Shown: piece after piece, positions 41,921 through 43,813 of the stretch
Numbering within the stretch: the stretch's first letter is position 1
Layout of the letters: every line of letters begins with the position of its first letter
Sequence record: PZ386948.1
Source: a phage
Strand: one strand, 5' to 3'
Length of the DNA: 64,000 nucleotides
The notes under the pieces: model-generated
Seen by the model: only the letters and a program-made list of their open reading frames with translations
Told to the model about the DNA's origin: nothing
Database searches by the model: none
Position numbers and translations under genes: made by a program

Positions 41921-41996
41921 TGGTCGAGGCAGTAGGGATCGAACCTACGACCTAGGACTTAGAAGGTCCTTGCTCTTCCTTCTGAGCTATGCCCCG
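41921..41996 (-). tRNA. tRNA-Arg (anticodon UCU)
   Basis: Minus-strand cloverleaf read by eye: anticodon arm AGGAC-CUUCUAA-GUCCU, T-arm GUAGG-UUCGAUC-CCUAC, encoded CCA. Confidence 0.8.
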
Positions 41997-42000
41997 TAAT

Positions 42001-42087
42001 TGGGGTGACCGATGGGAGTCGAACCACCCGAGTCGCAATGACAATGGATTTACAGTCCACACCGCTACCTCTACGGGATAACTCCCC
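42001..42087 (-). other. tRNA-like element, non-canonical (possible degenerate tRNA or small stable RNA)
   Basis: Has GGUUCGA T-loop-like motif, anticodon-like arm with GUA in loop and 3' CCA, but acceptor and T stems do not pair canonically by eye. Confidence 0.3.
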
Positions 42088-42100
42088 TTAATTCTTAATT

Positions 42101-42175
42101 TGGTGGCCCTGGGTGGAATTGAACCACCATCTGGCGATTATGAGTCGCTTGCTTGAACCTTCCAGCTACAGGGCC
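42101..42175 (-). tRNA. tRNA with CAU anticodon (Ile2-type or Met)
   Basis: Acceptor GGCCCUG/CAGGGCC, anticodon loop CUCAUAA, T-loop UUCAAUU, CCA encoded. Confidence 0.8.
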
Positions 42176-42176
42176 T

Positions 42177-42252
42177 TGGTGCTGATTGACGGAATCGAAC
42201 CGCCGACCTTCTCATTACAAGTGAGTTGCTCTACCTACTGAGCTAAATCAGC
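42177..42252 (-). tRNA. tRNA-Thr (anticodon UGU)
   Basis: Acceptor GCUGAUU/AAUCAGC, anticodon loop CUUGUAA, T-arm GGCGGUUCGAUUCCGUC. Confidence 0.8.
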
Positions 42253-42257
42253 AAAAC

Positions 42258-42347
42258 TGGCGGAGGCGATAGGATTTGAACCTATGAGTCGCCGGAGCGA
42301 CTGCCGGTTTTCAAGACCGGTGCATTAAACCACTCTGCCACGCCTCC
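42258..42347 (-). tRNA. tRNA-Ser (anticodon UGA)
   Basis: 90 nt type-II tRNA; reverse complement matches remembered T4 tRNA-Ser (GGAGGCGUGGCAGAGUGG...). Confidence 0.9.
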
Positions 42348-42353
42348 AAATAT

Positions 42354-43004
42354 TTATATATTGTTAATTTGATTTAGAATTCTTTTTGCTTGAGTATGAC
42401 TTACGCCAATATGCTTAGCATATTTAGACAATTCGCCACGTTTAGAAAAATCATATAATTTAGAAATTTCTATTCTTCTTTTTCTTTCATCCGCAGAAAC
42501 TTTTGCTTCGTTTGCTTTTGCTATTTTACGTTTAGCTTCTTGAGAATGAGTTTTACCAGCAAAGCCATTCTTCATTAATCCATTTGAAGACCATCCTTTT
42601 AATTTTCCGTTAGAATGTGCCTTTTTAACACCCAATGAAATTAATTCGCGTTGCTGATCTGTCATAGGATAATTATTTATATGATCCCATCCACCTTCAC
42701 CTCCAAGTTTTAAATTATACACATCTGGTCTATTTAAAAACTCTTCTGTGACAATATTTTTCTCGGCTTCAAGCATAGATTCTTTATCGTCAAAATACTC
42801 TAATATTTCTTTAGAAAAATTTTCTATACCATATTTATCTTGGGCTCTTTTTAATAATTTACCAGAACCCATATATCCATCATCTAAATTTTCGGTAGAA
42901 TGCACACCAATATAAATTTTATTATTAATTTTATTTGTTATTTTATAAAGATAAAAATGCATATCAGTCCCTAATAAAGAACTGAGCGTCTCACGACGAG
43001 TCAT
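42354..43004 (-). CDS. GIY-YIG homing endonuclease (SegB-like)
   Basis: 216 aa; GIY-YIG core YLYKITNKINNKIYIGV; C-terminal HTH-like tail; embedded between tRNA-Ser and tRNA-Gly. Confidence 0.75.
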   Translation of the reverse strand: MTRRETLSSLLGTDMHFYLYKITNKINNKIYIGVHSTENLDDGYMGSGKLLKRAQDKYGIENFSKEILEYFDDKESMLEAEKNIVTEEFLNRPDVYNLKLGGEGGWDHINNYPMTDQQRELISLGVKKAHSNGKLKGWSSNGLMKNGFAGKTHSQEAKRKIAKANEAKVSADERKRRIEISKLYDFSKRGELSKYAKHIGVSHTQAKRILNQINNI

Positions 43005-43008
43005 AAAT

Positions 43009-43082
43009 TGGAGCGGATAATGAGAATCGAACTCACATCATCAGATTGGAAGTCTGAGGTAATACCATTATACGATATCCGC
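43009..43082 (-). tRNA. tRNA-Gly (anticodon UCC)
   Basis: Anticodon arm UCAGA-CUUCCAA-UCUGA, T-loop GUUCGAUUC, CCA encoded. Confidence 0.8.
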
Positions 43083-43087
43083 AAATT

Positions 43088-43174
43088 TGGTGCGAGAAGT
43101 GGGACTCGAACCCACAAGGAAATCATTCCGCAGCATTTTAAGTGCTGTGCCTTTACCAATTTGACCATTCTCGC
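43088..43174 (-). tRNA. tRNA-Leu (anticodon UAA)
   Basis: 87 nt type-II tRNA; reverse complement matches remembered T4 tRNA-Leu (GCGAGAAUGGUCAAAUUGG...). Confidence 0.9.
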
Positions 43175-43180
43175 GCTATA

Positions 43181-43813
43181 TTATTTATTACGTGAAAAAG
43201 ACTGTTCTATCAATTCTGGACACTTTCGTTCTATCCATTTTCTAGCTTTTTGTGGGCTTATACCTATTATTTTAGCAGCTTTACTAACCCATCCAAATTT
43301 AGAATAATCGATTTTAACTAATTCTTCGTAAATTTCATCAGTTAAAATCTTTTCATTAATATTTACCAGTAAATGATATAATTTATTATCATTAGCAATT
43401 TTAATGAATCTTTTATAGTTTCCGCCTTTACTTAAACCTAATGAAGTAATTGCAGATGATATAGTAGCCGAATTTAATAGTGCGTTTAAAATTTCTTCAT
43501 CACTAACATTATAACGCTTTTTATTATTTTTAATATTTTTACCAGCAAAAGTATCAGTTTGCGAATGGCAGTTTGGACATAATAATCTTAAATTTGATTT
43601 AAGATGATTTTTGTTATTTCCATCAATATGGTCTAATTGCAGAACAATATGCTTATTTTGCCATTTTGAAATTTTACAAATTGCACACTCATATGGAAAA
43701 ATATTTTCTTTTATTATTTTGTCTTTCAGCTTTCCTGTACTAAAATTTGGATGTTTTCCTTCAAAAATTTCAGCTAATTTAGTATCCATAATATGATTCC
43801 CAATTATTAACAA
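43181..43813 (-). CDS. HNH homing endonuclease with zinc-finger and C-terminal HTH-like tail
   Basis: 210 aa; CAIC...HIDGNNKNH...NLRLLCPNCH; abuts tRNA-Leu. Confidence 0.7.
   Translation of the reverse strand: MLIIGNHIMDTKLAEIFEGKHPNFSTGKLKDKIIKENIFPYECAICKISKWQNKHIVLQLDHIDGNNKNHLKSNLRLLCPNCHSQTDTFAGKNIKNNKKRYNVSDEEILNALLNSATISSAITSLGLSKGGNYKRFIKIANDNKLYHLLVNINEKILTDEIYEELVKIDYSKFGWVSKAAKIIGISPQKARKWIERKCPELIEQSFSRNK

What the first reader, a model, noticed from the sequence alone, without database searches (positions are those of the whole stretch)
41921..43813. tRNA cluster invaded by two homing endonuclease genes, with expected tRNA-Pro and tRNA-Gln positions occupied
Minus-strand order is HNH ORF, tRNA-Leu, tRNA-Gly, GIY-YIG ORF, tRNA-Ser, tRNA-Thr, tRNA(CAU), an 87-nt tRNA-like element, tRNA-Arg. 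The T4 order as I recall it is Gln-Leu-Gly-Pro-Ser-Thr-Ile ... Arg. Here the GIY-YIG gene (42354-43004) fills the gap where tRNA-Pro would lie and the HNH gene (43181-43813) sits where tRNA-Gln would lie, with no spare spacer. T4 SegB is reported to cut at the conserved T-psi-C stem-loop sequence of tRNA genes, so this looks like tRNA genes lost or replaced during endonuclease-driven gene conversion.
Basis: partly seen in the sequence, partly recalled or inferred. Interest (0 to 1): 0.65.

Follow-up and report, generated by a model that had tools for sequence, protein, structure and literature searches.

The report
Homing endonuclease genes replacing phage tRNA genes
In the tRNA operon of a T4-like phage, two selfish nuclease genes sit exactly where related phages carry the tRNA-Gln and tRNA-Pro genes; this is a fresh example of a known behaviour (T4 SegB), not a new kind of element.

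Summary
The window is Shigella phage CM8 (Tequatrovirus), 100% identical to NC_054939. The minus-strand order is HNH ORF, tRNA-Leu, tRNA-Gly, GIY-YIG ORF, tRNA-Ser, tRNA-Thr, tRNA(CAU), an 87-nt element, tRNA-Arg. No tRNA-Pro or tRNA-Gln exists anywhere in the genome.

Among about 520 related phage records:
- 448 carry tRNA-Gln where 64 carry the HNH gene.
- 447 carry tRNA-Pro where 57 carry the GIY-YIG gene.
- All four combinations occur.

The GIY-YIG gene is a mosaic SegB. Its leader and catalytic domain are 98-100% DNA-identical to T6/T4 segB. Its C-terminal NUMOD3+HTH half is unrelated to theirs and comes from a SegB-like lineage that lies directly beside an intact tRNA-Pro in other T4-like genera. 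The HNH gene is distantly related to T5 F-TflIV. A 68%-identical relative sits directly after an intact tRNA-Gln.

So each nuclease tracks "its" tRNA gene, and tRNA loss belongs to the Tequatrovirus alleles, not to insertion as such. Homing that spreads these alleles is inferred, not shown.

The 87-nt element is a tRNA-Tyr/tRNA-His deletion chimera joined at the TψC motif.

Verdict: new member of a known kind, moderate interest.

The parts
43872..43898 (-). Putative T4-type middle promoter of the tRNA operon: MotA box TTTGCTTTA at 43890-43898 and a -10-like TATTAT at 43872-43877.
   Evidence: Read directly from the sequence. The stretch is conserved in T4, KAW1E185, VEc74 and Ec_O157kw. PMC2330249 states that T4 segB and the tRNAs are transcribed from a middle promoter just upstream of the cluster. 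Its function here is inferred.
43796..43802 (-). TGGGAAT, the first 7 nt of tRNA-Gln, kept at the left junction of the HNH cassette. Its GGGA lies 8 nt before the ATG and may serve as the ribosome-binding site.
   Evidence: Alignment with the Gln-bearing alleles of T4 and KAW1E185. A similar junction is seen in L014 and L015.
43181..43789 (-). HNH homing-endonuclease gene (202 aa) occupying the tRNA-Gln slot. It has an N-terminal HNH/Zn-finger nuclease domain and C-terminal helical HTH modules.
   Evidence: phrog_14736 at E=5e-124. Pfam HNH scores 17.3 bits, below its cut-off. 35% identity over 84% of its length to T5 hegA/F-TflIV. Invariant C35, C38, H54, N66, C71, C74 and H75 in a 23-sequence alignment. 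AlphaFold model with pLDDT 88. 64 phage records carry this allele.
43088..43174 (-). tRNA-Leu (UAA)
43009..43082 (-). tRNA-Gly (UCC). Its CCAA end is followed by TTT and then the SegB-like cassette.
42963..43008 (-). Conserved leader of the SegB-type cassette. A 9-bp hairpin (42964-42985) pairs with the Shine-Dalgarno sequence AGGGA.
   Evidence: The same leader precedes T6 segB and the Jiaodavirus homologues. The fold is -14.1 kcal/mol with z=-2.3, and the base changes in the Klebsiella phage keep the pairing.
42354..42962 (-). Mosaic SegB-like GIY-YIG homing-endonuclease gene (202 aa) occupying the tRNA-Pro slot. Codons 1-95 are the T6/T4 SegB catalytic domain. Codons 96-202 are a different NUMOD3+HTH DNA-binding half.
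   Evidence: Pfam GIY-YIG 26.8 bits against a 22.6 cut-off, and NUMOD3. Windowed nucleotide identities. Model top hits are the I-TevI catalytic domain 1mk0/1ln0, probability 1.0. 57 phage records carry this allele.
42258..42347 (-). tRNA-Ser (UGA)
42177..42252 (-). tRNA-Thr (UGU)
42101..42175 (-). tRNA with anticodon CAU, annotated Met. The gene at this position in T4 is called tRNA-Ile.
42001..42087 (-). Chimeric pseudo-tRNA: the 5' 73 nt of tRNA-Tyr joined to the 3' end of tRNA-His. The crossover lies within the shared GGTTCGACTCC (42015-42025). About 270 bp have been deleted, covering the Tyr 3' end, tRNA-Asn, a spacer and the His 5' part. The acceptor stem is broken.
   Evidence: As a single contiguous piece, the junction is seen only in the two CM8 records among the 15 best-matching rows listed; the other 13 match in two pieces.
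41921..41996 (-). tRNA-Arg (UCU)
41552..41902 (-). 116-aa ORF of unknown function (phrog_3355). The same ORF follows tRNA-Arg in T2.
41293..41552 (-). Homologues of the T4 stable RNAs rnaD and rnaC (species 2 and 1). They are not annotated in the CM8 record.
   Evidence: blastn gives 98.5% identity over 261 nt to T4 rnaD+rnaC.
41219..41242 (-). Intrinsic-terminator-like hairpin that closes the operon.
   Evidence: PMC2330249 states that T4 transcription ends after the species 1 RNA gene.

Best explanation
This is the tRNA operon of a T4-like phage, transcribed from a middle promoter near 43.9 kb to a terminator near 41.2 kb. Two free-standing homing-endonuclease cassettes occupy the slots that hold tRNA-Gln and tRNA-Pro in about 88% of related phages.

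Shown by sequence comparison:
- The HNH cassette replaces tRNA-Gln from its 8th nucleotide to its 3' end.
- The GIY-YIG cassette begins 4 nt after the CCA end of tRNA-Gly and ends 6 nt before tRNA-Ser, with tRNA-Pro gone.
- The GIY-YIG gene is a mosaic. Its leader and catalytic domain are nearly identical in DNA to T6/T4 segB. Its C-terminal NUMOD3+HTH half belongs to another SegB-like lineage. In Klebsiella Jiaodaviruses that lineage lies between tRNA-Gly and an intact tRNA-Pro. In three other T4-like contigs, one of them Erwinia phage FBB1, it lies directly after tRNA-Pro.
- The closest HNH relative outside Tequatrovirus lies directly after an intact tRNA-Gln.

Inferred:
- In a mixed infection each nuclease cuts the nuclease-less allele in or beside its own tRNA gene. 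For the SegB-like enzyme this is most likely at the tRNA-Gly CCAA / tRNA-Pro junction or within tRNA-Pro. For the HNH enzyme it is in or near tRNA-Gln.
- T4-type recombination-dependent repair then copies the nuclease allele, using the neighbouring tRNA genes as homology arms.
- Because the donor allele lacks the tRNA gene, the recipient loses it and also loses the target site.
- Expression is kept low in two ways. Both ORFs are embedded in the tRNA precursor transcript, and a hairpin hides the ribosome-binding site of the SegB-like ORF.
For: Identity of the window and the tRNA inventory.

Precise junctions: alignment of CM8 with T4, KAW1E185, VEc74 and Ec_O157kw.

Allele counts in the phage collection:
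- HNH allele 64 versus Gln allele 448.
- GIY-YIG allele 57 versus Gly-Pro-Ser allele 447.
- Every listed nuclease-bearing record is collinear with CM8, with no tRNA in between.
- All four haplotypes exist: T4, KAW1E185, VEc74 and CM8. Only three phages carry both nucleases. This shows the two sites assort independently although they are 170 bp apart.

Mosaic gene:
- 98-100% nucleotide identity to T4/T6 segB over codons 1-95.
- About 40-60% identity after that.
- The reverse pattern against Jiaodavirus KP13MC5-5.
- Identical leader in T6 segB.

Tracking of tRNA-Pro:
- In Jiaodavirus a 695-bp cassette lies precisely between tRNA-Gly and tRNA-Pro, and its stop codon falls inside tRNA-Pro. It is polymorphic, with 14 records carrying it and most records lacking it.
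- L019, L020 and L021 have the order Ile-Pro-[nuclease gene].

Tracking of tRNA-Gln: L013 has an intact tRNA-Gln, then the HNH gene 14 nt later.

Fold: the catalytic domain matches I-TevI structures 1mk0/1ln0.

Literature precedent:
- T4 SegB prefers a site in T2L tRNA-Asn, a gene T4 itself lacks. It drives about 94-100% inheritance of segB, with loss of T2L tRNA genes (PMC2330249).
- T6 SegB cuts within tRNA genes (PMC13096335).
Against: - There are no cleavage or cross data for either CM8 enzyme. The target sites are guesses.
- Relatives coexist with an intact neighbouring tRNA-Pro or tRNA-Gln. Deleting the tRNA is therefore not needed for residence or immunity. The recognition site could lie elsewhere, for example in the tRNA-Gly 3' end, which is intact in CM8.
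- One 55%-identical homologue (L022) has no tRNA-Pro within 1.5 kb and is antisense to its tRNAs.
- The junction that removed tRNA-Pro shows no informative microhomology, so its origin is unknown.
- Some copies are annotated as truncated (RB51, RB68). This suggests decay rather than activity in part of the population.
- Near-identity of the nuclease alleles could also result from ordinary recombination among very similar phages.
Confidence: 0.68

Rival explanations
1. The tRNA genes were lost by ordinary deletion between short conserved tRNA motifs, independently of the nucleases. On this view the nuclease genes merely sit in, or later entered, a region that tolerates rearrangement.
For: Nuclease-free deletions of exactly this type exist. 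CM8's own Tyr/His chimera is joined within GGTTCGACTCC. T6's Pro/Thr chimera is joined within TAGCTCAGT and removes Pro and Ser with no nuclease gene at that spot. The tRNA genes are dispensable in the laboratory (PMC2330249).
Against: The cassette ends coincide with the ends of the missing tRNA genes, and all 57 and 64 records share the same junctions. Relatives of each nuclease lie beside exactly the tRNA species that is missing here. That coincidence would be unlikely for unrelated events.
Confidence: 0.14
2. The nuclease genes are retained because they benefit the phage, for example by SegB-type amplification of anti-defence loci, rather than spreading mainly as selfish homing elements.
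For: T6 SegB has a catalytic domain and leader essentially identical to the CM8 gene. It drives segmental amplification of tRNA-Tyr and other anti-defence genes (PMC13096335).
Against: In CM8 the neighbouring tRNA-Tyr is itself destroyed by the deletion chimera. The allele is present in only about 11% of relatives and some copies are truncated. The C-terminal half differs from that of T6 SegB. This reading does not exclude homing.
Confidence: 0.13
3. The nuclease-bearing arrangement is ancestral, and tRNA-Gln and tRNA-Pro were inserted later in the majority lineage.
For: Direction cannot be read from a two-allele comparison alone.
Against: Seven nucleotides of the tRNA-Gln 5' end remain at the HNH junction. 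The Gly-Pro adjacency and the tRNA-Gln are conserved in other genera. The nuclease alleles are minority alleles (11-12%) and are 98-100% identical to each other, whereas the tRNA alleles diverge by up to about 7%.
Confidence: 0.04

Closest known systems
T4 SegB (GIY-YIG free-standing homing endonuclease in the T4 tRNA cluster; Brok-Volchanskaya et al. 2008, PMC2330249)
   Same: The catalytic domain matches (96% amino-acid and 98-100% nucleotide identity over codons 1-95). It resides inside the tRNA operon with almost no spacer. An RNA hairpin covers the ribosome-binding site. The nuclease-bearing genome lacks a tRNA gene that nuclease-less relatives carry.
   Different: The C-terminal half is unrelated (19% identity). 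The slot is different: Gly|Ser replacing Pro, rather than Ile|Arg replacing Tyr/Asn. The leader is different from T4's. There are no biochemical data.
T6 SegB (Chihara et al. 2026, PMC13096335)
   Same: The 46-nt leader is identical apart from one base. Codons 1-95 are essentially identical, including residues Y17 and G19 that were mutated in that study. The left junction has the same form: tRNA CCA, then ATTT, then the leader.
   Different: The T6 gene follows tRNA-Tyr and has the T4-type C-terminal half. Its shown role, amplification of tRNA-Tyr, cannot apply as such in CM8, where tRNA-Tyr is a broken chimera.
I-TevI (intron-encoded GIY-YIG endonuclease of T4 td)
   Same: The architecture has two parts: an N-terminal GIY-YIG catalytic domain (top structural hits 1mk0/1ln0), then a low-confidence linker with a NUMOD3 motif, then a C-terminal helix-turn-helix.
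   Different: The CM8 gene is free-standing rather than intron-encoded. No Zn finger was detected. Sequence identity is only about 25% in the catalytic domain.
T5 F-TflIV / hegA (HNH endonuclease in the T5 tRNA region; Akulenko et al. 2004, cited in PMC2330249)
   Same: It has an HNH nuclease domain with a C-terminal HTH. It lies directly after tRNA genes (tRNA-Ser3 and tRNA-Ile2) in the T5 tRNA region. Identity is 35% over 84% of the CM8 protein.
   Different: It is only a distant relative, from a different phage family, and lies beside different tRNAs. The CM8 lineage forms its own narrow family (phrog_14736) at the head of tRNA arrays in T4-like phages.

Membership tests
SegB (T4-type) | GIY-YIG catalytic domain orthologous to T4 SegB | tested here: met
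   83% identity over 117 aa. 98-100% nucleotide identity over codons 1-95. Pfam PF01541 scores above its cut-off. The modelled fold matches the I-TevI catalytic domain.
SegB (T4-type) | C-terminal DNA-binding region homologous to T4 SegB | tested here: not met
   No significant similarity beyond residue ~117. Identity is 19% over residues 96-202. Only the short NUMOD3 motif is shared.
SegB (T4-type) | Location between tRNA-Ile(CAU)/Tyr and tRNA-Arg | tested here: not met
   The CM8 gene lies between tRNA-Gly and tRNA-Ser. T4 and T6 segB lie upstream of tRNA-Arg.
SegB (T4-type) | Cleavage at GGTTCRANTCC...CCAR sites at tRNA gene 3' ends, and homing in crosses | not testable with these tools
   This needs purified protein and phage crosses. 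The only indirect clue is that the cassette begins 4 nt after the CCAA of tRNA-Gly.
SegB-like 'type B' lineage (NUMOD3 + ...GVSHTQARR HTH C-terminus), defined here | Full-length homology including the C-terminal half, and residence inside tRNA arrays of T4-like phages | tested here: met
   Full-length identity is 77-78% (P0122-P0124), 59-61% (P0125-P0126) and 50-55% (P0127-P0134). Contexts are L009, L010 and L019-L022.
SegB-like 'type B' lineage | Adjacency to tRNA-Pro | tested here: inconclusive
   The gene is adjacent to tRNA-Pro in Jiaodavirus, L019, L020 and L021. It is not in L022. In CM8 the tRNA-Pro slot itself is occupied. Too few of these lineages are independent for a firm statistic.
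HNH homing endonuclease (F-TflIV-like) | HNH (His-Me finger) nuclease motif with Zn-binding cysteines | tested here: met
   The motif DHIDGN...N...CPNCH and CAIC are present. C35, C38, H54, N66, C71, C74 and H75 are invariant in 23 homologues. PHROG HNH families hit at E=5e-124 and 2.5e-29. Pfam HNH is below its cut-off (17.3 versus 21.4 bits). Foldseek finds no significant PDB match.
HNH homing endonuclease (F-TflIV-like) | Presence/absence polymorphism at a fixed site among close relatives | tested here: met
   64 records carry the HNH gene and 448 carry tRNA-Gln at the same site.
HNH homing endonuclease (F-TflIV-like) | Site-specific nicking or cleavage, and biased inheritance | not testable with these tools
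   This needs biochemistry and crosses.
tRNA (for the 87-nt element) | Cloverleaf with a paired acceptor stem that scores above the Rfam threshold | tested here: not met
   ARAGORN does not call it. The Rfam tRNA score is 22.7 bits against a 29-bit threshold. The 5' strand comes from tRNA-Tyr and the 3' strand from tRNA-His.

The most novel reading that the evidence does not exclude
The SegB catalytic module is being recombined onto different DNA-binding modules, each of which tracks a particular tRNA gene. The T4/T6 type tracks tRNA-Asn and the type found here tracks tRNA-Pro. An unrelated HNH lineage tracks tRNA-Gln. Alleles that become immune by deleting the targeted tRNA then sweep by homing. 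On this reading, a guild of tRNA-gene-specific selfish nucleases erodes the tRNA arrays of T4-like phages gene by gene. Because phage tRNAs counter host tRNA-cleaving defences, the nucleases would set each phage's anti-defence repertoire.
Probability: 0.3. Interest if true: 0.55.

Novelty: new member of a known kind. Interest (0 to 1): 0.35.

Why it matters
Phage tRNA genes are now seen as counter-measures against host defences that cleave tRNAs (PMC13096335). If selfish nucleases decide which tRNA genes a T4-like phage keeps, they shape host range and sensitivity to those defences.

The CM8 gene is also a natural domain swap. It combines a near-identical SegB catalytic domain with a different DNA-binding half, at a different tRNA slot. 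That makes it a ready-made test of how GIY-YIG enzymes are retargeted.

None of this changes the known picture of free-standing homing endonucleases. It extends that picture to two more tRNA genes and to a second nuclease family.

Tried and rejected
- I asked whether the 46 nt between tRNA-Gly and the GIY-YIG start codon are a remnant of the tRNA-Pro 5' end, since they share GCTCAGTT. I rejected this. The local alignment is no better than 6-7% of shuffles. The same leader precedes T6 segB after tRNA-Tyr and the Jiaodavirus gene, where tRNA-Pro is intact.
- An exact-pattern scan of IMG/VR for the Leu-Gly junction returned only two loci. I therefore based the population survey on the GenBank phage collection.
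- A sequence search of the PDB found nothing for the GIY-YIG protein and only chance-level hits for the HNH protein.
- Foldseek of the whole HNH model gave no significant match, only weak local hits to HNH nucleases and homeodomain-like HTH folds.
- I looked for microhomology that could explain the HNH/tRNA-Gln junction. GAATTAGCC occurs both in tRNA-Gln and in the L013 HNH codons. It does not coincide with the actual junction.
- I considered counting 'empty-site' alleles (Gly directly joined to Ser, or the leader directly joined to Leu). I dropped this because the search tool's ranking would not separate them from the 447 Pro-bearing records.
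Full report
IDENTITY AND OBSERVATION

The window is 100% identical to Shigella phage CM8 (Tequatrovirus, NC_054939/MK962750). Window position 41500 corresponds to record position 67302.

ARAGORN and Rfam agree on six minus-strand tRNA genes: Arg 41921-41996, CAU 42101-42175, Thr 42177-42252, Ser 42258-347, Gly 43009-082 and Leu 43088-174. ARAGORN on the remaining 103 kb of the CM8 genome finds no further tRNA.

The two ORFs are a GIY-YIG protein (Pfam PF01541 above its cut-off, plus NUMOD3) and an HNH protein (phrog_14736, E=5e-124).

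From the homologues, the likely start codons are 43789 for HNH and 42962 for GIY-YIG. These replace the longer ORF starts given in the finding.

ALLELIC COMPARISON

Annotated relatives give a slot-by-slot matrix:

- T2: Gln-Leu-Gly-Pro-Ser-[133-aa ORF]-Met-Tyr-Asn-Arg
- T4: as given above
- T6: Gln-Leu-Gly-(Pro/Thr chimera)-Met-Tyr-[segB]-Arg
- KAW1E185: Gln-Leu-Gly-[GIY]-Ser-Thr-Met-Tyr-Asn-His-Arg
- VEc74: [HNH]-Leu-Gly-Pro-Ser-Thr-Met-Tyr-Asn-Arg
- Ec_O157kw: [HNH]-Leu-Gly-[GIY]-Ser-Thr-Met-Tyr-Asn-Arg
- CM8: [HNH]-Leu-Gly-[GIY]-Ser-Thr-Met-(Tyr/His chimera)-Arg

A base-level alignment shows how each cassette sits:

- The HNH cassette replaces tRNA-Gln from its 8th nucleotide (TGGGAAT|CATATTATG...) to its 3' end (...AATAATAT|AGC, followed by tRNA-Leu).
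- The GIY-YIG cassette starts 4 nt after the CCA of tRNA-Gly and ends 6 nt before tRNA-Ser.

POPULATION FREQUENCIES

In the GenBank phage collection:

- 64 records have the CM8-type leader|HNH|Leu arrangement. Each of the 60 listed is collinear with CM8 over the 841-nt query; 59 align as a single 841-842-nt piece, and BYEP02 aligns in two pieces spanning 918 nt.
- 448 records have leader-Gln-Leu.
- 57 records have Gly|GIY|Ser. Fifty-four of them align as one piece of 824-833 nt covering the whole 825-nt query, and the other three are partial matches (82-88%).
- 447 records have Gly-Pro-Ser.
- Only CM8, Ec_O157kw and PBM-1 carry both nuclease genes.

All four two-locus haplotypes exist although the sites are only about 170 bp apart. 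The two cassettes therefore move or recombine independently. The nuclease-bearing alleles are 98-100% identical to each other, whereas the tRNA-bearing alleles diverge by up to about 7% from T4. This fits recent spread of the cassettes.

THE GIY-YIG GENE IS A MOSAIC SegB

Windowed codon-alignment identities show the following pattern for CM8:

- Against T4 and T6 segB: 98-100% nucleotide identity over codons 1-95, then about 40-60%, which is effectively unrelated.
- Against the Klebsiella Jiaodavirus KP13MC5-5 homologue: 62-76% in the catalytic domain, then 80-100% in the C-terminal half.

The 46-nt leader of CM8 is the same as that of T6 segB, where it follows tRNA-Tyr (CCA-ATTT-ATGACTCG...). 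The Jiaodavirus gene has a close variant of it. The leader folds into a 9-bp hairpin that pairs with the Shine-Dalgarno sequence. The base differences in the Klebsiella phage preserve the pairing. This parallels the hairpin described for T4 segB (PMC2330249; -19.4 kcal/mol here).

The AlphaFold model has these features:

- A confident GIY-YIG domain whose top three PDB matches are the I-TevI catalytic domain (1mk0, 1ln0; probability 1.0).
- Low-confidence linkers.
- A confident C-terminal helical domain.

Pfam finds NUMOD3 in the C-terminal half and weak HTH matches. The architecture is therefore I-TevI-like.

WHERE THIS LINEAGE LIVES ELSEWHERE

In Jiaodavirus the homologous 695-bp cassette is inserted exactly into the 5-nt spacer between tRNA-Gly and tRNA-Pro (CCAAATT^ACTCCG). 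tRNA-Pro remains intact, and the ORF's TAG stop codon lies inside the tRNA-Pro D-stem. Fourteen records carry the cassette and most lack it.

Three further contigs of T4-like phages carry 50-52% identical full-length homologues directly after tRNA-Pro, in the order Ile-Pro-[gene]-Gln/Ala. These are L019, L020 (Erwinia phage FBB1) and L021. In L020 and L021 there is no spacer before the ORF start.

One 55% homologue (L022) has no tRNA-Pro nearby. The lineage is thus repeatedly, though not always, next to tRNA-Pro. In Tequatrovirus the tRNA-Pro slot itself is what it occupies. The loss of tRNA-Pro is a single ancestral feature of the Tequatrovirus allele, which has the same junction in all 57 records.

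THE HNH GENE

Its nearest annotated full-length relative outside Tequatrovirus is T5 hegA/F-TflIV, at 35% identity over 84% of its length. That gene lies directly after tRNA-Ser3 and tRNA-Ile2 in the T5 tRNA region.

The large protein database holds closer relatives at 68% and 58% identity. All three lie in T4-like phages at the head of the tRNA array, downstream of the dNMP kinase-57A-Acb1-Y07 genes:

- In L013 the HNH ORF starts 14 nt after an intact tRNA-Gln that is homologous to T4's.
- In L014 and L015 there is no adjacent tRNA-Gln, and the left junction resembles CM8's.

The catalytic His/Asn residues and both CxxC pairs are invariant in 23 homologues. The model is confident (pLDDT 88) but has no significant PDB match as a whole.

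The C-terminal HTH segments of the HNH and GIY-YIG proteins resemble each other: 12 of 24 residues are identical, and both hit phrog_16521. Sharing of DNA-binding modules between nuclease families is known for homing endonucleases. That last statement rests on my own knowledge of the NUMOD literature.

MECHANISM

Shown:
- The allelic replacements.
- The mosaic structure of the GIY-YIG gene.
- Each lineage's association with the tRNA species that is missing here.
- The operon context: a MotA-box promoter-like sequence at 43872-43898, rnaD/rnaC homologues at 41293-41552, and a terminator at 41219-41242.

Inferred by analogy with T4 SegB:
- T4 SegB prefers a site in T2L tRNA-Asn, a gene T4 lacks, and it excludes about 1.25 kb of T2L tRNA genes in crosses (PMC2330249).
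- By analogy, each CM8 enzyme would cut the nuclease-less allele in or beside its own tRNA gene.
- Recombinational repair would then copy the cassette, using the flanking tRNA genes as homology arms.
- The recipient would lose the tRNA gene together with the target site.

The exact targets are unknown. The candidates for the SegB-like enzyme are the tRNA-Gly CCAA end, which is where the shared catalytic domain would be expected to cut, and tRNA-Pro.

THE 87-nt ELEMENT

It consists of the 5' 73 nt of tRNA-Tyr fused to the 3' end of tRNA-His. The crossover lies within the shared GGTTCGACTCC. The deletion removes the Tyr 3' end, tRNA-Asn, a spacer and the His 5' part.

It is below the tRNA threshold. 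As a contiguous junction it was seen only in the two CM8 records among the 15 best-matching rows listed; the other 13 match in two pieces.

The crossover motif equals the core of the T4 SegB recognition sequence, GGTTCRANTCC. The deleted interval also contains T4 SegB's preferred cut site, the 3' end of tRNA-Asn. A break made by a SegB-type enzyme and repaired by annealing of the flanking T-loops is therefore an attractive origin, but it is unproven.

T6 shows a similar chimera. Its annotated tRNA-Thr is a tRNA-Pro 5' end joined to tRNA-Thr at TAGCTCAGT, and ARAGORN does not call it.

COMPARISON WITH WHAT IS KNOWN, AND VERDICT

The following are already published or deposited:
- Free-standing nucleases inside T-even tRNA clusters, their link to the TψC motif, and the exclusion of tRNA genes in crosses (PMC2330249).
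- The association of SegB homologues with tRNA genes (PMC13096335).
- The CM8 genes themselves, annotated as 'SegB-like protein' and 'HNH endonuclease'.

Searches of the paper library found no description of the following:
- The domain-swapped SegB at the tRNA-Pro slot.
- Its relatives beside tRNA-Pro in other genera.
- The HNH lineage at the tRNA-Gln slot.

I file the finding as a new member of a known kind, of moderate interest.

Noticed in passing
window 42001-42087 (crossover 42015-42025): The '87-nt tRNA-like element' is a tRNA-Tyr/tRNA-His deletion chimera joined within GGTTCGACTCC, the core motif recognised by T4 SegB. The deletion removes tRNA-Asn, which is T4 SegB's preferred target. 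The contiguous junction was seen only in the two CM8 records among the 15 best-matching rows listed.
   Followed up: yes
L008 (phage T6, AP018814.1) 2643-2728: The gene annotated tRNA-Thr in T6 is a tRNA-Pro 5' end fused to tRNA-Thr at the D-loop motif TAGCTCAGT. The rest of tRNA-Pro and all of tRNA-Ser are deleted. ARAGORN does not call it as a tRNA.
   Followed up: partly
window 41293-41552 and 41219-41242: Homologues of the T4 stable RNAs rnaD and rnaC (98.5% identity) are not annotated in the CM8 record, and only spurious short ORFs are listed there. A strong terminator-like hairpin follows them.
   Followed up: partly
L023 (phage T2, AP018813.1) 1391-1792: T2 carries a 133-aa ORF in the slot where other phages have tRNA-Thr. 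It belongs to phrog_16521 and is 33% identical over 115 aa to the C-terminal DNA-binding half of the CM8 SegB-like protein. It looks like a homing-endonuclease relic without its nuclease domain.
   Followed up: partly
L009/L010 (Klebsiella Jiaodavirus), L020/L021: SegB-like ORFs borrow signals from the adjoining tRNA genes. In Jiaodavirus the TAG stop codon lies inside the D-stem of tRNA-Pro. In L020 and L021 the ORF starts with TTG right after the CCA of tRNA-Pro, so the tRNA's GGAG serves as the likely ribosome-binding site, and in L020 the ORF's stop codon abuts the first base of tRNA-Ala. In two Jiaodavirus records the gene is not annotated at all.
   Followed up: partly
window 42354-42700 and 43181-43560: The C-terminal HTH segments of the GIY-YIG and HNH proteins resemble each other (DFSKRGELSKYAKHIGVSHTQAKR versus DYSKFGWVSKAAKIIGISPQKARK). 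Both hit phrog_16521. Two nuclease families in one operon therefore appear to share a DNA-binding module.
   Followed up: partly
window 45522-46340, and about 45635-47000: Three direct copies of a 123-nt unit (61-100% identity) lie among the internal-protein genes. The CM8 annotation lists IpI and Ip5 twice, with a short '57B' fragment between them. This suggests tandem duplication in the internal head protein cluster.
   Followed up: no
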